Counted from the stretch's first letter, positions 4,459-34,158 are shown. The stretch: DNA of 35,409 nucleotides from Reclinomonas americana ATCC 50394 (GCA_048213135.1 PS015067.1:102334-137742); one strand, 5' to 3'. The notes: generated by a model from the letters alone, not told the origin. Made by a program: numbers and translations.

Positions 4459-6090
4459 CTATCCACCGCCCCTGCCAGGCAACAAGTTCGCCACCGACTG
4501 CAACGGCTGGCGCAGCCACTTGCCGAGCTCCACCGACACTGTGGTGACGAATTTCTGCATGTCGCGCTGCTCGCCGAGATAGCTCTCCACCAGATGCCGC
4601 ATCGTCATCGGGTAGATCCAGTGCGGCACTCCGTCGCCGGCGCGATCCACCATCAGCAGACCCAGGTCGTGCAAGCGAAAGAGGGTCTCGTTGAGCTGAT
4701 GACCACGCACATCGTCGGCTTGATTGCCGCGCTTCAGCAGCACCTCGGCAAACACGTCGCGAGCCTCGGGAAACGACAGTGGCGTAAAGCGCTTCTCCCA
4801 CGGTACCTCGGTGACACGCTCCACCGATAGCACCTTGGCGTCGGGCTCCACCATGAGGCTCTTCAGCAACTCCTCGTTCTTCTCGCGCATCGTCTCCAGC
4901 AGTTTCTGATAGAAGGCCGCCACCAAGTCGTCGCTCATGGCCAGCTGCGTGCTGTCGGTGCGATCCATGCTGTCCTCTCGCACACCGCCGTGAGCGGTGT
5001 AGAATGCCAGGTCGTGGAGGCCGCGCAGCACGCGGCGTGGAGTCGCTCCGTACGTGAACAGCACCAGTCGCGCCTTGTTCTCGTCGTCGAGCTGGAGCAT
5101 TTGTTGCACTAGCTTCAGGTCGTTCATCAAGCCGTTTGGCACCCGAAAGGTGGGAAAGCGACTGGAGGTGAGAGTCGGGCAGTCTTGCACCAGCGGGTAC
5201 TCGTTGCTCAGGTTGGAGTCGCGCACGGCCTGCCGGTTGATGAGCAGCGGGAGCGACGGAGACGAACTGCAGAGAACCACGGCAAATCGACCACTGGGAA
5301 ACCCATCGGCCAGGGCCGCCATCTCGCGAAGCAATCCGCGCGCCAGCTGCGCCTCCTCTAGTGTCGACTGCAACGCCTTGACAGTGTACAGCTGGTCCAC
5401 GTCGTCGACGAGGAAGAGAATGTGCCGATTGGTGGCGGCCAGCACCGAGTCGGCCACACGGAGGGCACTCCAGTTGTCGCCCTCGCGCTCATCCGCATTG
5501 TTGCTGCTGCTGCTGTTGCCGTTGCCGTTGCCGCTATTACCATTAATGGAGGAGGGTCGACTTGGCACGATAAAGCCGTGCCGCTCCAGTGCCTCGCAGG
5601 CGAGTTCGCCGAGCGGACGCACGCCGGCACTGAAACCGCGCCCGTCAATCTCACCAAGCATGCTGCTGACGCTGACGTACACTGGCACCACCGTCGGCGC
5701 CATCAGCGGACACACCTCGGCGAACACGCGCAGCACAGTCGACTTGCCGACGCCGTCAGCCCCGACAATTGCCACGCCATTCGCACCCCGTGTGTGCGCC
5801 AGCCGGTCTTCTGCCAGCAGTACCGCCATGCTGGCCAGCTTGCCGAGCATCACGCGATGCGTGGGCGTGTCGTACACTCGAGTGGAGACCGTTTGTAGCA
5901 GGTGCTCGTGGCCGAGAGCATTGAGTGCGTGCAGCAGCTCCAGCGGGTCCGGCGGCCTCTCCAGCGTGTACTTGAGGTTGACATGATTCCGCTGAAGGCA
6001 CGCGATCCGCTGCTGTGTCAGCGACGGCGACGACGACGGCACATGTGGGAGCGTGGAGGCGTGAACGGCTACGCATGAAAGACCGCCCAT
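4459..6090 (-). CDS. Intronless P-loop NTPase (AAA+/STAND-like), about 543 aa; start codon uncertain (open frame extends to 6234)
   Basis: Single uninterrupted ORF with Walker A AIVGADGVGKS (5763-5740), Walker B ILFLVDD (about 5421-5401), a sensor-like strand AVVLCSSS and a GATPR turn. The probable start is MGGLSC at 6090. Confidence 0.8.
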   Translation of the reverse strand: MGGLSCVAVHASTLPHVPSSSPSLTQQRIACLQRNHVNLKYTLERPPDPLELLHALNALGHEHLLQTVSTRVYDTPTHRVMLGKLASMAVLLAEDRLAHTRGANGVAIVGADGVGKSTVLRVFAEVCPLMAPTVVPVYVSVSSMLGEIDGRGFSAGVRPLGELACEALERHGFIVPSRPSSINGNSGNGNGNSSSSNNADEREGDNWSALRVADSVLAATNRHILFLVDDVDQLYTVKALQSTLEEAQLARGLLREMAALADGFPSGRFAVVLCSSSPSLPLLINRQAVRDSNLSNEYPLVQDCPTLTSSRFPTFRVPNGLMNDLKLVQQMLQLDDENKARLVLFTYGATPRRVLRGLHDLAFYTAHGGVREDSMDRTDSTQLAMSDDLVAAFYQKLLETMREKNEELLKSLMVEPDAKVLSVERVTEVPWEKRFTPLSFPEARDVFAEVLLKRGNQADDVRGHQLNETLFRLHDLGLLMVDRAGDGVPHWIYPMTMRHLVESYLGEQRDMQKFVTTVSVELGKWLRQPLQSVANLLPGRGGG

Positions 6091-6357
6091 TAGCGACACC
6101 AGGGCGCTGTCGCGGGGGGAGGAAACAGTGAAGTGAGGAGAGTGACGAAGAGCAGCAACTGGCGACCACAGCATAGAGTACCATCCACCGAGAATCCACA
6201 TTGCGAGCACAGTGTCAGGCGGGTAGGTGGGCAAGCAAGCAGGCAGGCGAAGGTGAACACTCAGTCACAGGAAGCGACGGAGATGAAGGAAAGACAAGAG
6301 AATCCAGTTTTTCATGGACAACATGAATGTGCCGGAGAAACAATCTACTTACTTCAC

Positions 6358-9300: not shown

Positions 9301-12300
9301 AGTACTCGCCCACCGCGTTCACGCCGCTGAACTGACTGGCTCCTTGCTGCGCGATGCACACAGCACAGGTCAGTGAGCAGGCTCCATCCAATCACCGCCA
9401 TACATACGACACGAACCACAGTGTGACCCAGCGACATGGCACCGGCAAGCACCGAGATGCCTCGACTCTGGCCACCAGTCTGCACACCAGAGTGAGAACA
9501 TCTCTATCAGCAAACTTTGTGAACGGGGACGCAACTGCCAGCATCGCAGTAGTGCGCGTGCCCGACAAAAAGTACTCGTACTCGGAGGACCGATTCACCG
9601 TCTCCACCATTTCGTGACGACTGGCGTGTGCGTACGTGCGATACTTTTCCATGCTGTCGTCTTCCGGTTCGTCGATAAACGACAACGAATCCTGCGAGGC
9701 ACGAACAACGGTGAGCATCAGTGCGCGCCACAGAATGCTGGCGTGGCGTGACGAAACATCATGAGCACTTGTCATCCTGTTCACAATGGCGAATCGCTGG
9801 CGAATGTCCTCGTCAATGACAGCAGGCATGATGGAGACGGCCGCCATGCGACCCTTGGTGCTGTGGTGCGATGCCAGTGAGGAGAGTACAACGGCAGCTG
9901 CAGTGCACCGGGGGGAAACGAAACGAAGATCGTGCATGATGCGCACTTGCCGCTCGACTGTCACGCGCCACCGACAGCCGCTTCTCGTAGGGCACCAGCA
10001 AGCGCCTGAGTGTGTACGTGAGTGAGTGGGTAAAGGAAAGTAGGCAGCTGTGTAGCTGAGGAACACAACTTGTAAAAGTTGGTCAGCTTGTGCGTCTGGT
10101 GCGCCTGCTCAAAGTACGTGTCGTCCTTGGGCCTGTCAAACAGCTGCTCTTCGGTGCATGTCGCCACGCCGGCGAGACCCTCCTCCTGATTGATGCGCGA
10201 AAAGAGCGATGCGTGCGGGTCCTCGAATTCCTCATTCGGCCGCACCCACCAGTCGTCACGGAGTCTGCGACACGAAATGAGCGCACATCCTTGCTGTGCC
10301 AACCCCGCTTCCGCTCCGACGCAACACTTGCATACTCTCCGATCCTTCGCCAAACTCGGTGGCAGTGTTGTGCAGATAGAAATCCGTGGGCAACTCCCAC
10401 AAGTGCGGCTTGCCAATCTCCGGCACGTAGTGTCCGAGGAACAAGTTGATGGCCTCTTGCTTCTCCGGATCCAAGAAGTTGTTGCTGTCGCACACGGCTG
10501 TCAGCTCAACGGATTATGCAAGGCGTGCGCAGCAACACACTCACCTGTAGAATCGTCGAATGTTGGACAGGATATCCCAGCTGACGCCACGGTGATGCAC
10601 ACCGGCACTGACAGTGCGTGAGCCGCCGTACTGCAGAGCAAAGTTGTCACCGGCCTCATCGTACAGATCCATCAGCGCCTGAATAATGTCCTCGTGGCCA
10701 ACGAACGAGGCGCGCGAGAAGGCGCCCAGTGCATGCAGCTACGCACAAGCGTCAAAGTGTAAGACGAAATGACTCGCACCCACAACCATAACACGCATGA
10801 ATGGTGGTGCGATCAAACCTGGTGCGCGAGCGCAGACTTGCCAAACAAAAACTGCGCAATGTTGGTGCGGTCGAGACAGTCCAGGCAGTTCGTGCGCAGC
10901 ACGCCACGCTGCAACGTGTATCCCTCGAATGGCTGCGAGGAGAAATCGTAGAGTCCGCTCTCCTCCAGCCAGTCCGCGCGCTCGACAATCACTTTGGAGC
11001 GGAAAATGTTGGTCTCCGAAATGGCTCCCTCACAAATGACGGCCATCGTAGTCAGTGCGCGACCGAGGTTGCGTTTGGCGGCGCCGCGGAAGTCCCACGA
11101 AATGTGCTGCAAATGGAGCAAGTGAGTGAGTCACGAGGAGCGGAGAAGTGGGTGAGAGAGTCGTGGTACAAGTCACCTGAATCTTCTTCTCGGCCGGCAG
11201 GAACTGGTTGAGATAATTGACCAGCTCGTCAAACTCGCGCACCAGCGGCATCTCTCGCGGCTTCTTCTCCTGTGGTTTTAGCAGATCGAGCAGAATCACT
11301 GGCATGCCGTAGCGTCGGAACAGATCCTGGAAGTGGAGACGCGCTGCCGTGCATTGCGGATCGTAGCGGCCCACTGTCGAAATGTAGAGTATGTGAGTGT
11401 CATCATCATCATCACCACCACCACATTGACTGCACGTTGTGTGCACGAAACTGATAATGGTGGGCTTGGGCGCCACAATGGCCTTCGATTGTGTATCGTG
11501 CGACCAGTAGACCGGCACCGAGCCACGCACTTGCACCACCGACGTGAACACGCCCTCGCGCTCGAATTCGTTCACCGACGACGAGTCGTACACAATCTGC
11601 TCGGTCTCCACCTCGTTGGCCACGTGGCCCTGATCGTTGATGCCACGCTTGAGGTACCGAGTACCGGCAAAGTAGCGCGAGCGGCGACCAATGAGCACAA
11701 TCGAGATGGANNNNNNNNNNNNNNNNNNNNNNNNNNNNNNNNNNNNNNNNNNNNNNNNNNNNNNNNNNNNNNNNAGTGTGGCAGTTGCTGTTATTGATCT
11801 TGATGTGCATCATGCAGGGTTCATTCGCTTCCTGCAAGGCTACTACATGATCCTGATCACGTCACGACGGTTGGTGGGCGCCATTGGGCCACACAAGATC
11901 TACGAGATCACCGACACGGAGCTGCTGCCGCTCTTCCACCCCGTGAAGCTGAAGAAGGGCTTGTTTTCGAAGGATCTCGAGCAGCGGTGAGAAGAAGCAG
12001 ACATGGGGAGAGAAGAAGAAAAACTCACGTTCTTGTATCCTCCTCGTCTCCGCAGCTACAAGGAGCTGTTCACGGGCTTTTCGCTGAACAAGAACTTCTA
12101 CTTTAGCTACACCTACGACCTCACACAGACGCTGCAGTACAACATGCAAATGTCGTCGTCGCCAACTGACGGCTCCGGTGGCAGGTATGTGAGCGCATCT
12201 CGCTTTTCATCTCTGGTGTGTTGCCTCACACCCTCCACCCTAGTTTTGCATCGCGCTTCCGTGGCCGTCCCGAGAGCAAGTTTGTGTGGAACACGTACCT

Positions 12301-13321
12301 GCTGCAGCCGCTGATTGCGTGTGTGGGCGAGTGCGAGTGGGTGCTTCGTGTGGTGCACGGCAATGTCGGCCACCGCAGTTGCGTCACCACTCACACTCCC
12401 CTCCGCTCTCCGCACTCCACGTTCTCACACACCCGAACAAGCGCAGCACTGAATATGTTTGGGCGCNNNNNNNNNNNNNNNNNNNNCTCTCTCTCATTTC
12501 TCAGCTCCTGCTCAGCTCCTGGTCAGCTGTGCATTGCTCTTCGTCACCCACTGTGCTTTTATCTCACGCTTTCTCACTCTCTCACACACAGGATCATGAA
12601 GCAGCCTAGCAGTAACTGAACAATCCCTGCATGATGGACATCAATAGCAGCAACTGCCACACACACACACACACTCTCTCTCTCTCTCCTTCTCAGCCTC
12701 CTGCTCAGCTGTGCATTGTCTACCTGCTTGTCTTTTCTCCCTTTCCCCTCTCCCTCTCCTCCCTTCCCCCCCTTCCTCTCCCCCAGCGCACCAAGGATTC
12801 CATAGGCCTTGGGCCCCCTCTGCAAGCCGCCGACATTGCGGCAGCCATGGTTGACCATCTCCATGAGATCACGCATCTCCTTGCGAGAGTACTCGCCCGG
12901 ATCCGCGACAATCTCCAGATCCGTGAGGTTGCCCGCACCCTCTCCCATCGTCGCATCTCCACTACCACTGCCACCAGCAGCCGCAGCTGCAGCACCAACA
13001 GCAGCCGCAGACGACGAACCGGAATCGCCCGCAGATTGCGGAAGATCTGTCTCCACAATGAGCACACATCGTCGCGCCACACTGTCATGCGCACACACGC
13101 ATAGACAAAGACCTGACTTGGCCACTACTCGCTCAATCTTGAGCACGCGAAACGTGCGTCGTGCATGTTCCGTTCCGACCAAGTAGTACCTCTGCACACA
13201 ACAGACATGATGATGAGCACACAATCACACACTTGCAACACACACACACACACACACTTACTTGTGGTGTCTCGTACAAGACAAACTTTTGCAGGCAAGA
13301 GGTGACTGGAGGCAAACGCAT
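6358..13321 (-). CDS. FIG4: FIG4/SAC3-type polyphosphoinositide phosphatase with C-terminal DEP and DUF547 domains (about 30 exons; internal block 11775-12466 inverted)
   Basis: FIG4-like N-terminus [26 protein letters not shown] motifs [34 protein letters not shown], catalytic [36 protein letters not shown] phase-consistent exon chain continues to DEP ([11 protein letters not shown]...[10 protein letters not shown]) and DUF547 ([44 protein letters not shown]). Stop at 6360-6358. Confidence 0.85.
11775..12466 (+). other. FIG4: Four FIG4 exons in the opposite orientation, bounded by N gaps (probably a mis-oriented contig)
   Basis: Encodes [15 protein letters not shown]...[16 protein letters not shown]...KFVWNTYLL...VVHGNV...LNMFGR. 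This is the SAC segment missing between the minus-strand exons ending AYGILG (about 12793) and starting [11 protein letters not shown] (11710). Confidence 0.9.
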
Positions 13322-13403
13322 TGTCGGAGTGAGATGAGTGAGGCGAAAGTGACTGCGAAATTTCCTTCAGTCACACTCATTGCAAACCTTCAACGAGCAC
13401 GCT
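13322..13403. promoter_or_regulatory. Putative bidirectional promoter between FIG4 and the ARM-kinase-HECT gene
   Basis: 82 bp between divergent ATGs (13321 and 13404). Contains the reverse-complement pairs GTGACTG/CAGTCAC and ATGAGTG/CACTCAT. Confidence 0.55.
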
Positions 13404-16400
13404 ATGAGTGCGCCTCACTTGCGGCGCCCGTCCATGCCCGGACTGAGTGCCGAAGACCTGCAGCAAGTGGCCACACAAGCGCGACCTCTGTTGCGCACAC
13501 AGAAAAAAGTCTCTCTGTCTCTCTCGGTTTGTGTGCCGACTCTCACACTCACGCACACACAGAAAGTTGAGTCGGAATGTGGAGGCTGCGCGAGTTGAGG
13601 CACTGGATGGCCGCGTGCATCCGCTCATCTCACTGGCGCGCTACTCCAATGTGGAGATACTGAAGGAGGTGGCGCTGGCCCTCGCCGATGTCACCAAGCA
13701 CGGTGCGTGTGTCACGAGCACACACACACACGCACACACACACACACACACNNNNNNNNNNNNNNNNNNNNNNNNNNNNNNNNNNNNNNNNNNNNNNNNN
13801 NNNNNNNNNNNNNNNNNNNNNNNNNNNNNNNNNNNNNNNNNNNNNNNNNNNNNNNNNNNNNNNNNNNNNNNNNNNNNNNNNNNNNNNNNNNNNNNNNNNN
13901 NNNNNNNNNNNNNNNNNNNNNNNNNNNNNNNNNNNNNNNNNNNNNNNNNNNNNNNNNNNNNNNNNNNNNNNNNNNNNNNNNNNNNNNNNNNNNNNNNNNN
14001 NNNNNNNNNNNNNNNNNNNNNNNNNNNNNNNNNNNNNNNNNNNNNNNNNNNNNNNNNNNNNNNNNNNNNNNNNNNNNNNNNNNNNNNNNNNNNNNNNNNN
14101 NNNNNNNNNNNNNNNNNNNNNNNNNNNNNNNNNNNNNNNNNNNNNNNNNNNNNNNNNNNNNNNNNNNNNNNNNNNNNNNNNNNNNNNNNNNNNNNNNNNN
14201 NNNNNNNNNNNNNNNNNNNNNNNNNNNNNNNNNNNNNNNNNNNNNNNNNNNNNNNNNNNNNNNNNNNNNNNNNNNNNNNNNNNNNNNNNNNNNNNNNNNN
14301 NNNNNNNNNNNNNNNNNNNNNNNNNNNNNNNNNNNNNNNNNNNNNNNNNNNNNNNNNNNNNNNNNNNNNNNNNNNNNNNNNNNNNNNNNNNNNNNNNNNN
14401 NNNNNNNNNNNNNNNNNNNNNNNNNNNNNNNNNNNNNNNNNNNNNNNNNNNNNNNNNNNNNNNNNNNNNNNNNNNNNNNNNNNNNNNNNNNNNNNNNNNN
14501 NNNNNNNNNNNNNNNNNNNNNNNNNNNNNNNNNNNNNNNNNNNNNNNNNNNNNNNNNNNNNNNNNNNNNNNNNNNNNNNNNNNNNNNNNNNNNNNNNNNN
14601 NNNNNNNNNNNNNNNNNNNCCGTCTCTCACTCTGTGATGCAGGCGGCGCATGCCTCAACTTGGTGGAGTTCGGGGGTGTGGAACCGATCGCGGCACTGTC
14701 GTTGCACGAGAATGTGGAGGTGAGACGCACGGCGATTTCGGCGCTCATCAACATGTCGAGTCAGGTCGGTCACTTTCGCACCGTGGGCGTGTCGGCTGCC
14801 AAGTCGCTGGTCAACATGATTCGTGAGGGCGATGACACGGCGATGCGCAAGACCGGTGTGCAGGCGTTGGCGCGAGTGGCGGAGAACGGTACTTCGTCGA
14901 TCCGCTCCTGTTTCTCCTCCTCCCTCTACCGATCGCTTTCTCACGTGCATGCATGCAGTCGACTGTCACGCCACGATTCTGAAAGTCGGTGGCCACGAGG
15001 CACTGCTGGCGGTGTGCGATGAGGAGACCGATGTGGAGATGCTGTTGTCGGCGGCGCACACCTTGTCGTACTTGTGCTGCACCGATGCGTGTGCCGATGC
15101 GCTCATGGCCTCGTCGGTGTCGGCGACTGCGGCGGCCGCGGGCGATATGCGCAGCGCGGAGCAGCATACGTGCGAGACGTTGACGTCGTTGCTCAGCAAC
15201 GCCATGCACAGTGATGAGTCGCATGCGGTACTCGTGGATCCGTCGCACTCTCTGAATGCCACCTCCTCGGCCCTCTCGCCGTCGTCGTCGTCGTCAGCGG
15301 CACCGCACGGAGTGCAGACGGCGAGCACGCCAAAGTTGCCGCAAAAGATACAACGCGCACTGCGGGATGCTGCGTCGCCAGAAATGGCCGCGCTCACTGG
15401 TATGCGTGAGGAGCCGCGTCGTCACACTGGCACGCCGAGTCGGTGCGTTGCCGCCAGTCGTGCCGCTCACTCTCACAATGGAGCGATCGCTTCTCTGACC
15501 ATATTCACATCATGCAGGCGCGAAGATCACATGGCCGAGGTGTGGCGCAGTTCAGAGGGTGCCGCTGCTGCCGTGGCGTCCATGCGCTCGCACACGGCTG
15601 CGTCGTCGCCACCGCCGTTGCCGACGTCGCCCACGTCGCCCGATTCGTTCATTCGTCGCGCCCCACCCACGGCCAGTGGTGTGTCTGTGGCCGGCACGGT
15701 GGGAGGGACGCTGGCTGGTCACGGTAGTACCGCCACCGCCAGCGTCGTAGGCAACGGTGCAGGTGATGACGAGAGTCTCGACAGTCGTGGTCTGAATCGC
15801 GCCGAGGCGTTTAGGGAACGCGAGCGCGCTGGTTTCCGTGTGCCGAGTGACTGGAGCGACGTGGAGGTCTCCTTCTTATTCGCTCTTTGTGCGTGTACAT
15901 GAGTTGCCGCTCACCGTGCTGTGCACTCGCAGACGTGCATGACGGATGCGCCCGAGTACCGCATCACGAGTGTGGTCGGCGAGACGGCCAAGTGCATTGC
16001 GAACTTGTCGGTGTCGGGTTTCAGTCGCACGCTGCTGGCCAAGGGTCTGTTCACGGCGCTGTGTGCGGCGGTGGAGTTTGCCAACGGCACGCCCACCATG
16101 CGTGAGCTGGCACGAGCGTTGTATGAAGTGACCCGGGAAGGTGTGACACATCGCGCACGAAGCGCATATTGCGTTGCATTCACCAGCTGACCCGTGTTGC
16201 AGATGTGTCGGGAGACCTGCCGTCGTCCACCCTCTCGCGACTGATGGGCGTCGACGACAGCAAGACCAAGGTGTTTGCCATGCGCGTCATTCTCAATTTC
16301 GTGGCCACTTGTTGCGTCGTTTGTTGCTCCTCCTCCGTTGCTTCTCATTTCCTCACTGTCATCCGGTAACAGCGGCGGGTCGACTGTATACGGCTCAATC

Positions 16401-19400
16401 GGGAACCGTGAATGCGTTGGTGAACGTGGCGCGCTTCACCGACATTCGTGTGCAGCGAGCTTCTGCCGCGGCCCTATGCTGCATCACTGACGGTGCGTGC
16501 GCATGCAACTGTCACGTGCACCGTCGATGCTAAATTTCGTCCACTCGACGCAGAATGCAACACATACTTGAAGGACATGGGTCGCGAAGCCGTCAACTCT
16601 CTCCTGCTCTTGCTCAACTGCAAGGACTCGGAGGTCGATCGGCAAGCCGTGCAAGCATTGTGCAACATTTCCGAGCGCAGTTGCGTGCGATTTACGCGGG
16701 TTGACATGCCTACAAGTGTGCGTCGCTCACTTTTCACGCCGTGCAGTGCCTTCGCTGCGGGCCTCCATTTGTTTGGACGAGAATTTCTCGCTGCTCTTGC
16801 GTCTGCTGCACAGCACCGAGAACACGATCCAGCTGCGCATGCTGGAGACACTGCGCAACATTGCGTTGGAACGTTGCGTCGTGGGTGGTTTTCTTTTGTG
16901 AAGAGAGAGAGAGAGGAGAGAGTTGCTGACGAATTGTGCAGCCGAGTGTGTACCGCTGCTGCGGTCGCTGCAAGTGGTGGAGAAGATTGCGCAATGCACC
17001 GCCCTGGTGATGGAGGACACGCAGCTGTTGGCCTGCCAAGTGGTCATGTTCTTGTTCCCCATGAGTGCGTCACTTAATGTCTTATTCTGCTGTGCTCCGA
17101 TGCTCGCCACTCATTGCCGTTCTCCTTTCCTGTGCTGCGCTACAGATGTCCACGAGCAACGTCTGGCTCCGTACGGACCCTTCTGGAGTGTGTTCCGACA
17201 ATTGTGCTACCACTCGGACGCATCTGCATCGCTCTCGCTGCGGTGGAACGAGGAGCTGGTGCGCAAGCTGTGCCTCCCGCTCGGCGTAGCGACGTACCCG
17301 ACCTGCGTGCATGCCCTTGCCGCGTGGTGCCTGGCGCATGTGTCATTCACTGGTATGGTTGTGTGACTGTGAGGTGCTGTGGTGCACGGTGCTCATTTGT
17401 CGGCATCTGCAGAAATGGAGTGCACCAAGTTGGTGGAGTGGATGGATCTGGGGTGCATTCGTGCCGGAGCCTCATCGTCGCACCTCTTGGTGCGTCACTT
17501 GTGCTCGCTCACACTACTCAATCTCGGCTACGAAGGTACGCGATGCGCTGCGTTCCTGTTGTGTAGCATTTACCTGATCCGAGTCTCGCAGAAATCAACG
17601 AGAGCTGCGCGCCGTCACAAACCGAGGACGAGTTGCCGGTCGGTGGCCTGGATGCATTGGGTCGCGAATTGTCGCTGCAGGAGGCAGAGATGCAGCGACA
17701 TCGCAGTCGCACCGACGCATTGTTTACATACCTGCAGTCGCACAAGGTGTGTGCATTTGTCACAAGTCTATGAGCAAGTAGGTACTCTGACTGACCGCCG
17801 AGGGGAGCGCAGACCATGCTGCACGAGATCGAGAGTCTGTTTGCGTTGAATGCACAACAGCAGGGTGATGCGGGTCGACCGGAAGACGTCCTTGCGCACT
17901 CGTATGAGCTGCGCGACAATCTGCGGCGCGATCTGCGCGAATTCCTGTTGTCGCCGTCGTCACAACCGACTCCACTCGGCTCGCCCGGCGAGTCCGCCCC
18001 GCTGAATGATGATTTCGAGGAACGCGATGAAGGTTTAGTTGTTTCGCTAAGTGCCATTTGCGCCTCTCAAGTTGTGCTCACCGTGTTTCATCGCGATAGT
18101 AGCGACTTTTGGTGTCCCCACCACACCCATGACTCCGCGTCCCATCGGCGAAGACAATCCACTGTACAACCGAGCCGTGGAAATCCAGGAGCTGAGGTGT
18201 GTATGTATCGCCATGCAGAAGAAGAGTCGTGTCAGCTGATGAAACTGTCGGCATCAAAAACAGGAGCGTTGGCCGTGAGCGACTCGGCGCTCTTGTCGCC
18301 CATTCGGACACAGCGGCGGCTGCATGCGGTGCTGTTCTCGAGCTGTGCTCCCTGCTTTCGTCGCAACACGCCGAGACACTGAGCAGGTGAGCTCGGGCGA
18401 ATGGTGGCGATGTTTCCGTCTTCGCTTTTCAGACTGACGTTGCGGAAGCAGTTCATCGGAATATCCGTCGTCGCTGCATGGCACCGCGGAGGAGCTGACA
18501 CACACGCTTAAGGTGTTCCAAGACTGGCTCACGGCGTGTGAAGAAGGTGTGGTGGTGATCTCCATTGTTCCTCACAGTCACACTCTTCTTTGTTCATCGT
18601 GATCCATGGCACAGAGCAACACCGAGCAGTGCAGCACACGATGCGCGAATACAAGAACCAACTCACCATCCAATGTGAGCGCTACGCAGCCTTGCAGAAG
18701 TGGGGTGCCAGCGCATTCGACATGTTGCTCTCAGTGTCGTACAAGTTGTGTCTCCGTTGACTCGTCTCTCCGTGTCGTGCATCTGCTGATCGGCCTCCGC
18801 GCAGGTACTTTGAGCATCGTCGTGAGGTGGTGTCGCTGGGCGACGTGTTTGCGCAGTACCGCAGCATGATGTGGTCGCTGGAGCGTGAGGACGTGGAGCG
18901 CACCGAGATTCTGACATTGATCAAGGACAAGGCTCGTCTCAAGGCGCAGTGGATCGACGAGCTTAAGCGTACCAATCGCATGGAGTACGAGCTGAAGGAG
19001 ATGGAGTTGAATGGTGCCGCGGCCAACACGCTGGCCGAGGTTTGTCTCGTGTCACCACCACTGTGGCGCGCATCATATTTGTTGCTTATTCACGAATGTG
19101 ACAGGCAAGTGCGCGAGTGGATGAGCAGCGCGACAAGGTCGCGGCGATTGCTCGCAAGCAGGAGAGGTACACAGTGCTTCCCGTTGACGCCTCCACATAG
19201 AAATGTGCTGCTGACACACACGTGTGCGCACTTGCAGCATTTCTACGCGCCTTCGCGCCCTCTCCATTTCCCATGCCGACACGGTGGTGCTGTGTGGAGC
19301 ACTGGAGGCCGATGCGGCAGCTGATGAGCGACTGGTGCGCTCAGGAGTTCTCGTGCGGCGGCGCATCTCCGAAGACTACGACATTATTCGTGAACTGCGA

Positions 19401-22400
19401 CGCGCTGTGGTGCGTTGGTTCTCCTGGCGTGTGATATTTATGACATGCTGAGCTCACATGAATGGCCGCTCGCAGTTCCTGGCCAAGCTCAAGGGCGATG
19501 GTCGACTAACGGTGCTGAAGGAGTTTTCGCGTTCCGAGGAGGCGCTGCTCGAGCACGAGGTTTGTGCCGATTCGACTGCATTCATGTGAAACACCGAGTT
19601 GTAACTCTGTGCGTGCAGGCCTGCGTCTTGTCGTCGCTGAAGCATCCGTTTGTGGTCAACATTGAGGCCGTCTTCAAGGATCGGCCAAAGGGCGGTCGCG
19701 ACTGGCAGAAAGCCTACATTCAGTTCCCGTACTACGAGGTGACGAAGTGGCACACATACTCGCTCTCTTTGTCACCCCAGCTCCGTCACTCATGCGCAAA
19801 TGCAGGGCGGAACGCTGCGCGAGTGGATGAGTTCCGGCGAACGTACTCCGTGGGAGCTGGAGTGTGTGTTCCGTCAGATTGTGCAGGGAGTCGGATACAT
19901 TCACAGTCAGCGCATCGTGCATCGGTTTGTGGAAGAGAGAGAGGGGAACGCGAGTGTGACGTGATCGGATGCTGACGGCAGTGGGTGGGTGCGCAGTGAT
20001 CTGAAGCCAGAAAATGTGTTCATGACACGATTGGGTACGCCGAAGATTGCCGACTTTGGATTCGCGCGCACCGAGAGTATCCTGCGCGACTCGCGCACCA
20101 GTTGCGTTCTCCCTGCTGTGCTGTCTTCACATCTCTATTGCGCCCCTGAAGACTCACTGTCGGCGGCAGGTGAATTCATTGGAACTCGTCCATTTGCGGC
20201 GCCAGAGGTCCTGCTGCCCATGTATGCGCGCTCGCTGTCGGGCTCCTCGAAGAAGGGCAAGCACATCCGCTCGTCGGCCGGGCGATCTCGAAGCGATGCC
20301 AGCAGCTCGCTGTCACCTTCGGTTCGTGCACTCTGCCTGTCTCCATTGCATTTCCCGTGCTCTGTCCTCATGCATCTCACAGAGCAAGTCGAATCCGTCG
20401 TCGTCTTCGTCATCGTCGTCGCCCATGTCGTCGTCGCGTGCCTCGTACAAGTCGGACATGTGGAGTCTCGGTGTGATGATTTTGGAGGCTCACTTCGGGC
20501 CGCTGGAGGATTCGTTGCGTCGATGCTGTGCTTCCGTTCATGGGACAGGGACTGACCCTTGCCTCGCCCGAAACAGACCACGTCCCAAGTCCGACGCACA
20601 CAGCGTCATTTATGCAACGCCACTGGCCGCCTCCAGTGTGTTTACCAACTACTTTACTCCGACCACGCCACCGCGGACCAAGGCACGTGTGCGGATCTCG
20701 CAGTTTCCTTGCTTTTTATCGTGGCAGTGCACTCACGCACCACAACACAGCAGAAGATCTCCCGTCGCTCCAGCTCGGGATCCCTTGGCAACCCGCCAGG
20801 CGCCGCCACTGGTCTGTTTGGCAAGATTGAGATCCCCGACAAGGATGCGCTGCGAGAGAACCTTCGCCGCGACATGACGGATGAGATGTTTGCGCAACTG
20901 AGGTGAGTCGGGCGTGTCGCACAAGAGTGCTGGTGTCACGCCTCGCTGATGTTTTCATACATCGTAGATCACTGCTTCGCCGCCTGCTGGCCATCGATCC
21001 GCGCCACCGCCCAAGTGCCATTGAGTTGCTGGCTCATCCGTACTTTTCCACCCCGCATGCGCACATGCTGCACCGCGATCGCTTCTTGATTCGCAGGTGC
21101 GGGCCCGTGCTTCAGTGTTCACGTGTGTCTGTCTGTCTGTGTGCACTCACGTGTCGGCACACAGCGACGACAAGATTCGACAGATCCGCGAGGTGTGCGA
21201 CGAAAAGTCCCGCGACATCCCGCCCATCGAGCTCACCGTGTCGCGGGCCCACATTGTCAATGACGTGGTGGAGGTGCGAACGCACACACGCGTGCGAGTC
21301 GGTTGTGCACTAATGTGTAATATCTAACAACCCTACTATTTTTCCACGCGCGGCAGGTCTTTAGCGCCATGACACTCGACGAAGACATGCTGGCACCGCT
21401 GCACACGCAGCTGCTGGAGGACAGTGGCGAGAGCGGCGAGGACATGGGTGCCGTGTCGGACGACATGTTTACCGAATTCTTCACGCGTGTTCTCGATCCG
21501 AAGCTGGGGTACGTCGGCGTGTGGAATGCGTTTATTATCCAAGCTTGGTGTGCTCATCTTGCGTTGTGTTGCAGCTTGTTCGAGGCGTCGTGCGGCATCA
21601 ACGGTGCCGACCCAGACAGCGAGTTGTATTTGCCGGTGCCAAACACCGATGCTGAGTTTGCGTACGAGAGTGTTGGTGCGGCGCTGCTCAAGTGCCTCAT
21701 TGACAACCGCCCGGTGCACGCGCGATTTGCGCCGTCGCTCTTCAAGTACTTGCTCGACATTGACCCGTCGTACACCGATCTAGAGGTTGGCTGCCGCGCG
21801 CATTGATATGTGTGTGTGTGCGCTCGACAGTAGCTGACCATTGCTCGCGTCGCAGTTGTACGATCCGCAGTACGCACACAACCTGCGCGAGTACGTGCTG
21901 CACAAGACGATCACGGAGCCGACGTATTTGCACTTTATCAGTGACACGGGTGAAGAGAAGGAGCTGAGCGAGGAGAACAAGTACGAGTACGTGAGGAAAC
22001 AGGTGCGGTTGCAGTTGCTTCTTGTGGAAGTCAAAGAAGTACGACCTCGCTCACTCTCCTCTGGTCCACAGATTTACGAAAAGTTGATTGGCTGCCGGAA
22101 ACAGCATCTGGAGGCCATCAAGCGCGGCTTCACACGCGTCAACATGTCGTTGTGGCTGAAGGGTCTCAACTGCACCGAGCTCATGTTGTTGCTGTGCGGC
22201 GAGGACTACTTGGACTCGGACATGGTGCTGCAGAATGTGGTCTTCTCGTCGTCCTTCCCCGAAGGGTCACCGACCCCGGACTATGCGCGGAGATTCCTGC
22301 GTGATTGCGATTCAACAGGTGTGCGGTTTGATTGGTGGGGCGCTGTTGCTCTTTGTCATAGTCGCACGACTCAACAGAGAGCGTCACTCACAGCTCTGCG

Positions 22401-22852
22401 ACGATTCCTCCGTCTGTGCACCTCGTTGATTGCCATTCCGTACGGTGGCTTCCAACAGAAGATCACCGTGTTCCCTTCGAGTTGCGTCCCTCGTGTTTCT
22501 CCAGGAAGCAGCCACTCGGCCTCACACGCGCTCTCCTCTCGTCCGAACAGGCCGTCTGTATGCGCAGACGTGCTTCCACCACTTGGAGGTGCCGGAGCTG
22601 CCGTCGTACGAGGACTTTGCGGCGGCAATGCTGGCCGCCATTGTGGCTGTCGACAGTGCAGGTATCATTGTCATGAGACTGTTTATTGGTGTCTATTCTC
22701 ATGTTCTTCTCATCACCTTCACCCCTTTCTCTCTCCCTGCACCAGGCATGGAGGAGGACGTGGAGTCGAACGACGGCGATTTTGAGTTGCAAGACGACCA
22801 GCAAATGGGACAGTTTGACCGATCGCCCTCTGGCCAGTCACTCGACAGTTGA
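13404..22852 (+). CDS. Armadillo-repeat + coiled-coil + Ser/Thr protein kinase + HECT E3 ubiquitin ligase fusion (more than 35 exons; one gap at 13752-14619)
   Basis: ARM-like repeats (GGVEPIAALS..VEVRRTAISALINMS; GTVNALVNVA..IRVQRASAAALCCI; EVDRQAVQALCNIS). Kinase motifs TVLKE, LKHPFVV, HRDLKPEN, KIADFG, GTRPFAAPE, SDMWSLGV, DPRHRPSA. HECT motifs GEDMGAV, FAPSLFKYLL, DLELYDP, EENKYEYV, LEAIKRGF, and AQTCFHHLEVP (Cys at 22571-22573). All junctions traced are GT-AG and in phase. Stop at 22850-22852. Confidence 0.8.
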
Positions 22853-29447: not shown

Positions 29448-32404
29448 CTATCGAGCCTTCCAGCATTCCAGCAGAAACTCGGAGAACTCGTCTGGTTCGT
29501 CGGCGACGCCACCGGCCAGGTGCACCACGGCTTCCACTTGAGGATTCGAGGTGCTGATGCAGGGGGTGAGAGAAGGTGTGGAGCAGGAGCGAGGAAAGAG
29601 ACACGCACCGACGTAATCGTTGGACCAGCGCGGTGATGAACGCTTCGGTGAAGCCGGGATGGGCGCGCTCGACTTGCACCAGTTCGCGCTCCACTTCGTG
29701 TGTGTCGCAACCGGTCTGCCGGCGTGCAAACTCGTGAGTGACGCGTCGAATTCAACGCAACAAGTGAGCGAGACGAACCTCCTCGAGCGCCGGTAGAACG
29801 TAGTTGGTCAGCAGCGAATTAGACGTAGCAATGGTGGTCTCCGACCGGACTCTGCCGATCACGTACGAATCAGCCACACGGATGTCACCTCGCGCGCACA
29901 CCCCATCACTCACCGCTCAGGTCTCGGCACGGAGGACGACTCGCCGGGTGCCGGTGACATGCCACCACCATTAGCTCGCTGCTGCGGTGTGGGAGACATC
30001 TGACAAAGGGGGAGGTGAGTGGGGAAAGACACGGAAAACGAGTGGACGACCGGAACGCAACATCGACTTGTGCACCGCCCAGTGGACTGAACCGTGGCGG
30101 TGGAATGGGCGACGGCAGCTGCAACACCGACGGCGACGCGGATGGCGTCACAGAGGCTGTGGCCGACGAGACCACGGATGAAGCGGCCGCGGACAAGTGC
30201 GACGGCGGCTGCGGGGAGGGTGCCGGTGAGGCGGTGGCCGATGAGCCGCCAGACGCTGCGCCAGGCGTGTCGCGTGGTCGCATGGTGAAACTCCACCCCG
30301 GATCGGAGGAGTCGGCGCCCGAGGCCGAACCCGACGGTGGGTTGCTGGAGCGTGTGGTGAGTGATGAGGTGTGGGAACGGGACAAGGGAAGGAGACGAAA
30401 CAGACGTCCCGGATCGTCGTCGTCAGAGTCGCGATTGGCCTCGTACATCTCTCTCCGCTCAATGAGGTCCACCAGCAGGGAGGTTTTCTTGGCGCTTTTG
30501 ATGAAGCGGTGCTTCAGAAGCTCGCGGGCGGTTGGTCTCTGAGAGGGGGGAAGGAGGGAGAAAGAGAGCAGGGTCAGCGCGCAACGAGAGAAGGGAGGCG
30601 AGTGCAACGAGGGAGGCGAGTGCAACGAGGGAGACGAGTGCAACGAGGGAGGCGAGTGCAACGAGGGAGGCGAGTGCAACGAGGGAGGAGTGCAACGAGG
30701 GAGACGAGTGCAACGAGGGAGACGAGTGCAACGAGGGAGACGAGTGCAACGAGGGAGACGAGTGCAACGAGGGAGACGAGTGCAACGAGGGAGACGAGTG
30801 CAACGAGGGAGACGAGTGCAACGAGGGAGGAGTGCAACGAGGAAGGAGTGCAACGAAGAAGGCAAGCGCCGACGGACTGCATGATACGAAATCCGAAGTA
30901 TCACGGGGAAACGCAACTGCTTCTGGCTCCTTCTGCAGACAGGCCGCCACAAACTCCTTGAAGGAGCGCGAGAAGTTGCCCTCCAGCTGTGGCGGTTGCG
31001 ACTTGGGAATGACAAAGAGAGCACGCATCGGGTGGAGGTCCGAGTACGGCGGTGCGCCTTTGGCCATCTCAATCGCGGTGATGCCCAACGACCAAATGTC
31101 ACACTGTGCCGACACTGGTGAGGAAAAGGCCAGTGACAAGCACTCTCTGCAGCAAGCGAACCTTCTCATTGTAGCCCGACGTTTGACGGATGACCTCACT
31201 GCATGCCAATCGGTTAGAAGTCGCCAGGAGGGAGACTAGGGAAGGATCAGCAGTAACGCAACGCTGCGGAGGGAGGGAAGAGTGAGTGTGAGGTGAGACA
31301 AAGGAGAGGGGTGTAGTATTGCAGCAAAAAAACGCAACGAGCCATCCAGAACGGTGTGCCAACAAATGTGTGTCTCTTGGTGCGGTTTTCCGAGAGCTGC
31401 AGAGCGAGGGTGAGATCAACGGAGGGTACGAACCCGACAGATACACACGTTCACCTGCGCAGCGACACCAAAATCGGCAAGCTTCACGTCACCGTTGGAG
31501 GCCACGAGAATGTTGGCCGCTGCATGATTTTCCCCCCGACAATTCAGCATGCAGTGCAAGTTGCAAACACCCCGTGCTCCTGCATTTCGGAGGAGGAGCA
31601 AAAAACGTACGTACCCTTGATGTCGCGATGCAGCTTTTGTGACGAATGCAGGTACTCCAGCGCCTGGTGCGCAACAGTGAGCAAGGCGGACAGCGAGCAG
31701 CGCACGTGGAAGAACAATACCTTGAGCGTCTCGCGCAGGATCACGGCAATGTACATTTCCTGCAACGGGTTCCGAGTGAAACAGAATGCGGAGAGAGGGG
31801 TGGGAAAGGGAGGCAGAGAGGAGAGAGAGAGAGAGAGGAGAAGGAGGAGGAGAAGGAGGAGGAGGACGGTGGGAGACGAAGGGAANNNNNNNNNNNNNNN
31901 NNNNNCCTCTCGTGTGTGTGCCCCTCACCAAATCATGCACAGAACCCCCCTCCAAGTACTCCATAATGATCCACAAATGCTGACCGACCACCACCGAACC
32001 ATGAATGGCGACGACCAGTGGTGACGCACACTCCAACATGACATGAATCTCTCGTTGTATCTCCTCAATCTCCTCCTCCGCCTCCTCCAAGTCAATCACT
32101 TTGATGGCCACACTGGCGCCACTCTCCTTGTCGCGACTGTGCGCATGTGTGTGTGTAAGAGAGAGAGAGAGAAGAGGGGAAGGGGAGAGTGTGTGTGTGT
32201 GTAACGCAACGCGCGCCACACTTCGCCAAAGCTTCCCTGCCCAATCTTCTCCACGAGCTCAAATTGCTCAGCATGCACACTGCGATGTGCGCGCTGTGTG
32301 TGTGTCATGTGTGAGTTTCATAGAGTGTGTGTGCAAGTGTGTGTGAGAGAGAGTGTGAGAACCATGGCAGCGGAGGAGGCGCCGGAGGATTTCCGCTTCA
32401 GCAT
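29448..32404 (-). CDS. STE20-family GCK-III kinase (MST3/MST4/STK25/SvkA-like) with a C-terminal dimerisation-type helical region
   Basis: [126 protein letters not shown]-terminus [13 protein letters not shown]...FLLECWKAR. Confidence 0.93.
30600..30858. repeat. Intronic minisatellite, about 15 copies of an 18-bp unit GAGTGCAACGAGGGAG(A/G)C (a few 16-bp variants)
   Basis: Direct tandem copies start at about 30600, 30618, 30636 and so on to 30846, inside the 379-nt kinase intron 30917-30539. Confidence 0.95.
31263..31263 (-). other. Predicted single-nucleotide exon (C) in the GCK-III kinase gene
   Basis: Minus strand: ATG GCT C|gttgcg..75 nt..ccgcag|C|gttgcg..64 nt..catgcag|T GAG GTC. This restores MAPEV. 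Confidence 0.8.
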
Positions 32405-33041: not shown

Positions 33042-34158
33042 ATGACTGCGAAGGTCTGCTTGCTGCGCTGTTGCAGTAGCTACTGTCTCACCACGCATGC
33101 GATCATCGTAGGTCTTGGTTGGTCACACGGGTGCGGTCATGTCTGTTGTCGTCACTCCCGACGGTCTTCACGCAGTCAGCGGGAGTGCGGATAAGACAGT
33201 GCGGGTGTGGTCATTGGCGAGTGGGCAGGAGGTGCGACAGCTGGAGGGACACCTTGGGGAGGTGACGTGCGTTGCTGTCACCCCCAATGGCCAGCACGTT
33301 TTGAGTGGGAGTAAGGACGTCACGATCCGGGTTTGGTCGTTGGAGAGTGGCGAGGAGGTACGACGGTTGATGGGGAACATTGGCGGCGTGCTATGCGTGG
33401 CTGTAACACCCGACGGGCTGTGCTTGGTGAGTGGGATTGAGGATGAGGAAGAATGTGAGATGATGTGGGTTCGGTCTCTGGCGACTGGCGCCGAGTTGCG
33501 CCATTTCGACGGACACCCATGTGGAATGCTCGCTGTTGTGGCTGTTCCCGACAGTCTTTGCGTTTTGAGTGGTGGTTGGGACGGCACGGTGCGTGTGTGG
33601 TCGCTGGCGAGTGGCGAGGAGATGCGACGGTTGGAGGGCCACGGGCGCGAGGTGCGGTCTGTCGTCGTCACTGCCGACGGGCAGCACGTTGTGAGCGGAA
33701 GCGCAGATGGGACCGTTCGAGTGTGGTCACTGGCGAGTGGTGAGGAAACGAAACGGCTGGTGGGTCACACCCGGCCGGTGTGGACTGTCGCCGCGACCTC
33801 TGACGCTCAGCACATCGTGAGCGGGGGTTGTGACGAGACGGTGCGAGTGTGGTCGCGGGTGAGTGGCAAAGAAGAGCACCGATTGGAGGGGCACACTTCA
33901 TTCGTGTACTCTGTCGCTGTCACTCCTGATGATCAGCACGTAGTGAGTGGGAGTGGTGACAAGACCATTCGGGTTTGGTCCACGCCGTGCGGTCTCGCTC
34001 GGCGTGAACTGAACAGTGCTCGTCTGGCGGCTACTAGTGTGAACGAGATGCTGCTTGAAGCCGACCAGTACCACGAGTGGATTCTGGTCGATGTGGTGCT
34101 GCGGTGCTTCATCGTGGGTGAGGCTGAGGCTATCGAATACCGCGCGCCTGGATGGTAA
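33042..34158 (+). CDS. Seven-repeat WD40 beta-propeller protein with highly similar repeats
   Basis: MTAK|intron|VLVGHTG..., then seven ~42-aa repeats of consensus GH..V.SV.VTPDG..VVSGS.D.TVRVWSLASGEE.RRLE and a short helical tail. Only one intron. Stop at 34156-34158. Confidence 0.88.

What the first reader, a model, noticed from the sequence alone, without database searches (positions are those of the whole stretch)
13404..22852. Single gene combining ARM repeats, a coiled coil, a protein kinase and a HECT E3 ligase
Seen: a continuous, phase-consistent exon chain (also phase-compatible across the gap). The kinase end (LLAHPYF) runs via about 35 aa into the HECT N-lobe (IELTVSRAHIVND). Kinase Lys/HRD/DFG/APE and the HECT Cys are retained. 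Established: ARM+HECT (TRIP12/Ufd4 type) and ARM+kinase (Fused/ULK4 type) exist separately. Inference: a dual phosphorylation-ubiquitination enzyme with an ARM adaptor, an architecture I do not recognise from model organisms.
Basis: partly seen in the sequence, partly recalled or inferred. Interest (0 to 1): 0.75.

Follow-up and report, generated by a model that had tools for sequence, protein, structure and literature searches.

The report
Armadillo-headed kinase-HECT ubiquitin ligase gene
One intron-rich gene of an unidentified microbial eukaryote very probably encodes armadillo repeats, a helical stalk, a protein kinase and a HECT ubiquitin ligase in one chain; the kinase-ligase core is a known protist module studied in Leishmania, so only the armadillo head and an unusually long acidic tail look new.

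Summary
A 39-exon model (13404-22852, +) gives one 2002-aa frame: ARM repeats, helical stalk, kinase, HECT. A second copy in the same assembly keeps the frame and all 37 testable splice sites, with 97 synonymous and 5 non-synonymous changes. Kinase Lys/Glu/HRD/DFG/APE and the HECT Cys are intact. The claim of an unrecognised architecture holds only for the head. The stalk-kinase-HECT part is collinear with Leishmania TKUL/HECT12 and with about 100 protist proteins carrying TPR, ankyrin, LRR, RCC1, Kelch, NZF or WD40 heads; both catalytic domains group with that family. No ARM head was seen in 67 relatives with Pfam data. Likely mechanism, by homology: ARM recruits targets and kinase autophosphorylation switches on the ligase. 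One caveat: the C-terminus has Met where relatives have the '-4' Phe, plus a 33-aa acidic extension, so ligase output may be restrained. No RNA was available, and an 868-N gap may hide more ARM exons. The scan has noted an ARM-kinase-HECT gene before on another piece of this genome, probably the second copy, and other heads on the same core. Verdict: new variant of a known kind.

The parts
13404..22852 (+). Whole gene model, 39 exons, 2002 aa (a minimum if the gap hides exons)
13404..13702 (+). Exons 1-2 (13404-13489, 13563-13702): N-terminus and first ARM-like repeat; lie on a small contig before the gap; intron 1 donor chosen by frame, weak score
   Evidence: no Pfam hit on exon 2 alone
13752..14619 (.). 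868-N scaffold gap inside intron 2; could hide whole ARM exons; not filled by the second copy
14643..15086 (+). ARM repeats, first block (aa 76-200)
   Evidence: Pfam Arm/HEAT, Vac8 E 7e-9, atlas 0.95
15099..15866 (+). Ser/Ala/Pro-rich low-complexity insert splitting the ARM array (aa ~205-435); intron 4 is in frame and stop-free, so its use is uncertain
   Evidence: sequence
15933..17534 (+). ARM repeats, second block (aa 436-815); three one-repeat exons have Pfam Arm hits, the rest is ARM-like by inference
17592..19376 (+). Helical stalk (aa ~816-1234), homologous to the pre-kinase region of relatives from aa 974 (P0046) or 1126 (TKUL orthologue); 23 synonymous and 0 non-synonymous changes between copies
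19377..21046 (+). Protein kinase (aa 1235-1596): K1260 at 19518, E1273 at 19557, HRD split by intron 25, DFG at 20052, APE at 20199; no GxGxxG loop (family trait); two Ser/Pro-rich inserts in the C-lobe
21047..21222 (+). Kinase-HECT linker, about 37 aa, with family-like length and sequence
21223..22750 (+). HECT domain (aa 1633-1969); catalytic Cys1938 at 22571-22573; Met1969 at the position of the family's -4 Phe
22751..22852 (+). 33-aa acidic C-terminal extension and stop; unchanged in protein in the second copy (2 synonymous changes in the last exon)

Best explanation
One gene encodes a TKUL-type kinase-HECT ubiquitin ligase whose target-binding head is an armadillo solenoid instead of TPRs. 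Shown from DNA: the exon chain, the domains, intact catalytic residues, purifying selection and descent of both catalytic domains from the protist kinase-HECT family. Inferred from TKUL: the kinase acts mainly as a built-in switch, and its autophosphorylation turns on the adjacent HECT, which takes ubiquitin on Cys1938 and passes it to proteins held by the ARM head. Inferred only: the helical stalk spaces or dimerises the enzyme, and the acidic tail modulates the last transfer step.
For: Single frame kept in two copies, 97:5 synonymous to non-synonymous, none non-synonymous from aa 816 on. Introns 12-18 joining ARM to stalk have donors in the top 7% of GT sites and all have a branch-like motif. 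BLASTP of the model to the L. martiniquensis TKUL orthologue P0012 covers aa 1126-1952 at E 1.6e-54, and to Physarum P0014 at E 1.4e-51 and 2.1e-29; P0012 matches PDB 9GMP, the TKUL kinase domain, at E 8.9e-163. HECT tree: 59 kinase-HECT proteins, this one included, split from 10 kinase-less HECTs at 0.999. Kinase tree: 61 family kinases plus 1 other split from 29 other kinases at 0.982. Heads vary freely in the family. Kinase control of TKUL ligase is stated in two secondary sources.
Against: No transcript links the exons. The tail departs from the family: 65 residues from the Cys to the end against 8-47 in 69 relatives, and Phe at -4 in 54 of 69 but not here; Phe-to-Leu change and C-terminal tags impair other HECTs (PMC3738095). 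Identity to TKUL is only 25%, and the position within the family is unresolved (support 0.78 and 0.30). The TKUL mechanism is known to me second-hand. No ARM-headed orthologue was found, so the head rests on one genome.
Confidence: 0.58

Rival explanations
1. Same single protein, but the HECT is restrained or weak as a ligase: it loads ubiquitin, and the Met-for-Phe change plus the acidic extension block or gate transfer, so it works mostly as an ARM-scaffolded kinase or as a ligase released only by modification or cleavage of the tail.
For: Longest post-Cys tail of 70 aligned proteins; no Phe at -4; tail kept in both copies and intron 38 shown to be real by a 2-nt indel; the C-terminus is part of the HECT active site.
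Against: No amino-acid change in the linker, HECT or tail between copies (18 synonymous, 0 non-synonymous). Some relatives also end in Met plus acidic residues (P0145, P0155). An acidic side chain can supply the carboxyl group. Phe1980 sits in a motif like the family's terminal one and may substitute.
Confidence: 0.2
2. The kinase phosphorylates ARM-bound substrates in trans and the HECT then ubiquitinates them (self-contained phospho-degron writer and reader), without an allosteric switch.
For: Complete catalytic set including the RD motif, which only 29 of 69 relatives keep; one chain holds both activities.
Against: The only studied homologue is reported to need autophosphorylation for ligase activity; kinase and HECT are joined by a short conserved linker; many relatives have degenerate kinases, which fits a switch or scaffold role.
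Confidence: 0.12
3. Two adjacent genes: an ARM protein ending near exon 13-14, and a headless stalk-kinase-HECT gene starting at exon 15; or exons 1-2 do not belong.
For: Headless relatives exist (32 of 52 scanned had no Pfam head); intron 14 has an in-frame stop and an ATG follows its acceptor; exons 1-2 are joined only across a gap and are inverted in the other scaffold.
Against: No spacer above 84 nt between 14643 and 22852; all junction introns have strong sites and are kept in both copies. The window's orientation of exons 1-2 agrees with the neighbouring SacI-domain gene.
Confidence: 0.08
4. A TRIP12/Ufd4/UPL3-type ARM-HECT ligase that gained a kinase, or a Fused/ULK4-type kinase-ARM protein that gained a HECT.
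For: Those domain pairs exist (PMC3673628; PMC1266030).
Against: The HECT groups away from four TRIP12-type HECTs; the kinase groups with the kinase-HECT family; in Fused/ULK4 the kinase is N-terminal (recalled).
Confidence: 0.02

Closest known systems
Leishmania mexicana TKUL / HECT12 (LmxM.34.4000; L. major LmjF35.4000; PDB 9GMP; Fokkens et al. 2025 Mol Cell 85:3711, not held, known from citations)
   Same: Collinear helical stalk, kinase without a canonical Gly-rich loop, ~35-aa linker, compact HECT with catalytic Cys; repeat head at the N-terminus.
   Different: ARM instead of TPR head; about 2000 against about 1420 aa; HRD instead of HAD (orthologue P0012); P-loop 4 residues shorter; Ser/Pro-rich kinase inserts; Met for the -4 Phe and a 33-aa acidic extension; 38 introns.
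Other protist kinase-HECT proteins: Physarum and Tieghemostelium (RCC1 head), Anaeramoeba (LRR-filamin), Naegleria and Soliformovum (ankyrin), Rhodelphis (WD40), Cymbomonas (beta-helix), Gloeochaete, Spironema; includes or overlaps the kinase-bearing 'GL-Bikonta' HECTs of PMC3673628
   Same: Same stalk-kinase-HECT core, found with E<1e-58 by one profile.
   Different: None of 67 with Pfam data has an ARM head; none of 69 aligned has so long a tail. Identity with GL-Bikonta was not tested directly.
TRIP12 / Ufd4 / UPL3 ARM-HECT ligases
   Same: ARM repeats N-terminal to a HECT; in TRIP12 the ARM repeats position ubiquitin chains.
   Different: No kinase; HECT in a separate clade.
Yeast Vac8 and other ARM adaptors
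   Same: Best natural match of exon 3 among solved structures (E 7e-9).
   Different: Only repeat-level likeness; orthology not shown; no catalytic domains.

Membership tests
TKUL-type kinase-HECT module | Kinase directly upstream of a C-terminal HECT with a short conserved linker | tested here: met
   Linker 37 aa; 31-37 in the 15 first relatives; alignment
TKUL-type kinase-HECT module | HECT and kinase share ancestry with the family | tested here: met
   HECT split 0.999 against 10 outgroups; kinase split 0.982 against 29 of 30; FastTree supports, limited outgroups
TKUL-type kinase-HECT module | Homologous helical region before the kinase | tested here: met
   BLASTP alignments start 100-260 aa before the kinase
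TKUL-type kinase-HECT module | Autophosphorylation required for ligase activity | not testable with these tools
   Reported for TKUL; needs biochemistry
TKUL proper (Leishmania orthologous group) | N-terminal TPR repeats | tested here: not met
   Head is ARM; no BLASTP hit of aa 1-970 to any of 180 proteins; not in the euglenozoan TPR clade
Active HECT E3 ligase | Catalytic Cys in the C-lobe | tested here: met
   C1938 in the column where 64 of 69 relatives have Cys
Active HECT E3 ligase | Phe about four residues from the C-terminus | tested here: not met
   Met1969 at that position, Phe only at -23 and -12; 54 of 69 relatives have Phe at -4. This lowers confidence in activity, not in the fold
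Active eukaryotic protein kinase | beta3 Lys, alphaC Glu, HRD-K-N, DFG, APE, subdomain IX Asp | tested here: met
Active eukaryotic protein kinase | GxGxxG loop | tested here: not met
   Absent here and in 69 of 70 aligned members, the TKUL orthologue included, so not diagnostic in this family
TRIP12/Ufd4/UPL3 | HECT in the TRIP12 clade | tested here: not met
Fused/ULK4 | N-terminal ULK-type kinase followed by ARM/HEAT repeats (recalled) | tested here: not met
   Order is ARM then kinase; no ULK sequence was placed in the tree

The most novel reading that the evidence does not exclude
This organism has expanded the kinase-HECT module into a set of sensor-switch-ligase proteins with swappable heads (at least 5 loci seen here; earlier notes add LRR, UEV, macro, Kelch and Ubl heads), and this ARM member uses its acidic C-terminal extension as a built-in lock or as a substitute for the canonical HECT end, released by its own kinase: a mode of HECT control not found in my searches.
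Probability: 0.15. Interest if true: 0.7.

Novelty: new variant of a known kind. Interest (0 to 1): 0.36.

Why it matters
It adds an ARM head to the list of adaptors on a kinase-HECT module that has one studied member. That supports the view that the module is a general switchable ligase whose target choice is set by the head. The extended acidic tail is a natural variant at a position held essential in HECT catalysis, so it offers a direct test of that rule. It does not establish a new enzyme class.

Tried and rejected
RNA: the look-up of sequencing runs listed no RNA holder; none was listed, which is no evidence either way, so no reads were laid. The first homologue search with a HECT stretch gave 1 protein among 1075 candidates; no database protein encoded by this window appeared. 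The atlas search with a stalk exon gave only weak generic helical hits, recognition below threshold. An ARM profile built from this protein's own repeats found nothing in 180 proteins, but it also missed the TRIP12 proteins in the set, so it is not used as evidence. Fold searches of the relative P0046 were filled by HECT and kinase matches and did not test the stalk. The spliced protein could not be folded with the tools. A first impression that the Met-plus-acidic end places the gene with P0104/P0145/P0155 was not supported by the HECT tree. Hidden micro-exons as the cause of the short P-loop were rejected: intron 22 is 66 nt and relative P0046 has the same loop length. Paper searches: 'TKUL', kinase-HECT phrases including 'armadillo repeat kinase HECT' (15 of 25 listed, none with that phrase), HECT architecture with armadillo, Dictyostelium kinome with HECT and RCC1 (0 papers): none showed an ARM-kinase-HECT protein. 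Fokkens 2025 is not held; its figures and supplements may list ARM-headed members. A look-up of earlier findings by the exon 3 sequence returned nothing.

Full report
Gene model. The window is eukaryotic DNA with short introns. From three-frame reading and candidate splice sites I built a 39-exon model from 13404 to 22852 on the + strand. It gives 2002 aa without an internal stop. Thirty-seven introns are 56-84 nt (mean 68); intron 2 holds an 868-N gap. A branch-like motif precedes 34 of 38 acceptors, against 25% of 432 AG sites. Scored with a matrix trained on introns 22-38, the donors of introns 12-18, which join the ARM part to the stalk, lie at the 93rd-100th percentile. Donors of introns 1, 3, 5, 7, 19, 21 and 28 are weaker, so some boundaries may shift by a few codons.

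Independent check. The assembly holds a second copy on C552, probably the other allele. Over 6009 exon bases it has 102 substitutions, no indel, 97 synonymous and 5 non-synonymous codon changes, all five in the ARM part. Introns differ at 6.4% plus 72 indel bases, and all 37 testable GT/AG pairs are kept. dN/dS is about 0.02. This shows that the frames are right and under selection from head to tail. It does not prove a single transcript. The window's orientation is the one that fits the neighbouring SacI-domain gene, whose 5' part lies on the same contig (inference). ARM exons 8-11 are 120-126 nt between phase-1 introns, so whole repeats could hide in the gap without breaking the frame.

Domains. 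Pfam on 24 exon-level pieces found Arm/HEAT on 4, Pkinase on 4 and HECT on 3; 2 had weak unrelated hits and 11 had none. Exon 3 matches Vac8 (E 7e-9) and designed ARM proteins and Arm clusters at 0.95. The ARM array is split by a low-complexity insert of about 230 aa. The kinase keeps K1260, E1273, HRD-K-N, DFG, APE and the subdomain IX Asp; it lacks GxGxxG, as do 69 of 70 aligned family members. C1938 aligns with the catalytic Cys of 64 of 69 relatives. The region between ARM and kinase is helical by homology: a relative folds there into long helices over residues 112-419 (pLDDT mixed, pTM 0.48). Heptad signal in this protein was weak (4 of 30 windows).

Relatives. A HECT stretch found one protein, a TPR-kinase-HECT, collinear with the model over stalk, kinase and HECT. 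Searching with it gave 31 proteins, 15 with both domains: 11 with TPR, 2 with no listed head, 1 RCC1 (Physarum), 1 Kelch. A profile search of 1.84 billion representatives listed its best 150. Among the 180 proteins then held, 100 had a kinase segment upstream of a HECT. I scanned 52 of these 100 with Pfam, chosen for long N-termini; 15 had precomputed Pfam, 5 were near-duplicates or a fragment of them, and 28, mostly fragments, were not scanned. Heads in the 52: ankyrin 9, LRR 3, RanBP-type zinc finger 3, Kelch 2, RCC1 1, WD40 1, beta-helix 1, none 32, ARM 0 at E<=1e-5. Named members come from Leishmania, Phytomonas, Naegleria, Anaeramoeba, Physarum, Tieghemostelium, Soliformovum, Gloeochaete, Rhodelphis, Cymbomonas and Spironema (30 looked up, 13 without any name). 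In a FastTree of 69 HECT domains (331 columns; 9 redundant euglenozoan-type and 2 short rows dropped) the 59 kinase-HECT proteins split from 10 kinase-less HECTs at 0.999, and the model's sister group was weak (0.78). In a tree of 91 kinases (225 columns) 29 of 30 HECT-less kinases split off at 0.982. The own genome has more such loci: of 6 regions fetched, 4 showed kinase exons upstream of HECT exons, 1 only HECT and 1 only kinase.

Literature. PMC1266030 (passages) describes LmjF35.4000 as a kinase with three TPRs and a HECT. PMC3673628 (passages and section 16) notes kinase domains in divergent HECTs of Naegleria and Ectocarpus. PMC7647121 (passages and one supplement row) lists LmxM.34.4000 as HECT12 with fitness defects on deletion. 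bioRxiv 10.64898/2026.05.08.723729 (passages) names it TKUL and says autophosphorylation is required for ligase activity. PMC13196369 (passages) cites Fokkens et al. 2025 for allosteric inhibition by a kinase inhibitor. That paper is not held; I recall that it calls the module widespread in unicellular eukaryotes, which I could not check, and its supplements may list ARM-headed forms. bioRxiv 10.64898/2026.09.15.751656 (one passage) only lists the gene. PDB 9GMP is titled the TKUL kinase domain and matches P0012 at E 8.9e-163. Searches showed no ARM-kinase-HECT protein.

From the catalytic Cys to the end the model has 65 residues; 69 relatives have 8-47, mostly 32-37, and 54 have Phe at -4. 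Here Met1969 takes that place and a 33-aa acidic extension follows, with Phe at -23 in a motif that resembles the family's terminal one. The last intron is real (2-nt indel between copies) and the last exon has only synonymous changes. In Rsp5, Phe-to-Leu impairs ligation and C-terminal tags hinder HECT activity (PMC3738095, passages); an acidic side chain can stand in for the terminal carboxyl. So ligase activity is likely but less certain than the retained Cys suggests.

Mechanism. Most likely (0.58): the ARM head binds targets or partners, the kinase autophosphorylates and switches on the HECT, and ubiquitin passes through C1938 to the target. The architecture itself I put at about 0.9; the switch is borrowed from TKUL at 25% identity. 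Rivals: a restrained or weak ligase (0.20), substrate phosphorylation in trans (0.12), two genes (0.08), TRIP12- or Fused-derived origin (0.02).

Earlier notes. The scan already holds a note on an ARM-kinase-HECT gene of 8180 letters on another piece of this genome, close to the span from exon 3 to the stop, so probably the C552 copy; I did not confirm this. Other notes list LRR, UEV, macro, Kelch and Ubl heads. They prompted my paralogue check; I did not test their heads. I had reached the TKUL link before reading them.

Verdict. Real and well supported as a gene; the core is known; the ARM head and the tail are unstudied variations. New variant of a known kind, interest 0.36.

Noticed in passing
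window 11775-12466: This small contig carries SacI-domain (FIG4-like) exons on the + strand, while the rest of that gene is on the - strand: probably inverted in the scaffold. In C552 a different piece is inverted.
   Followed up: partly
window 11776-11855 and 12589-12662: An 80-nt inverted look-alike pair at 79% identity; one copy looks like a degraded duplicate of a SacI-gene exon end, perhaps an assembly artefact.
   Followed up: no
window ~13200-13404: The SacI-domain gene and this gene start head to head about 200 bp apart, so they may share a promoter.
   Followed up: no
window 4459-6264 (-): A 601-codon uninterrupted frame with weak AAA_16/nSTAND1 hits (E 1e-4, 5e-4), apparently intronless in an intron-rich genome.
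   Followed up: partly
window 33112-34158 (+): A 348-codon uninterrupted WD40 frame with very regular repeats.
   Followed up: partly
window 30459-32258 (-): A Ste20/MST-like kinase gene (family label recalled; Pkinase hits) with a tandem repeat inside an intron near 30600-30900.
   Followed up: no
G000:C80, C379, C365, C4533 (L020, L021, L022, L025): Four more kinase-plus-HECT loci in the same genome; some kinases show altered catalytic motifs. Three have a likely second copy (C4283, C75, C4421).
   Followed up: partly
window 16554-17064: Exons 9-11 and introns 10 show no or few differences between the two copies (0 substitutions in 375 exon bases), a possible short tract of homozygosity or collapsed assembly.
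   Followed up: no
P0050, P0059 (Anaeramoeba): These LRR-filamin-kinase-HECT relatives lack the catalytic Cys and the terminal Phe, so dead ligases occur in the family.
   Followed up: no
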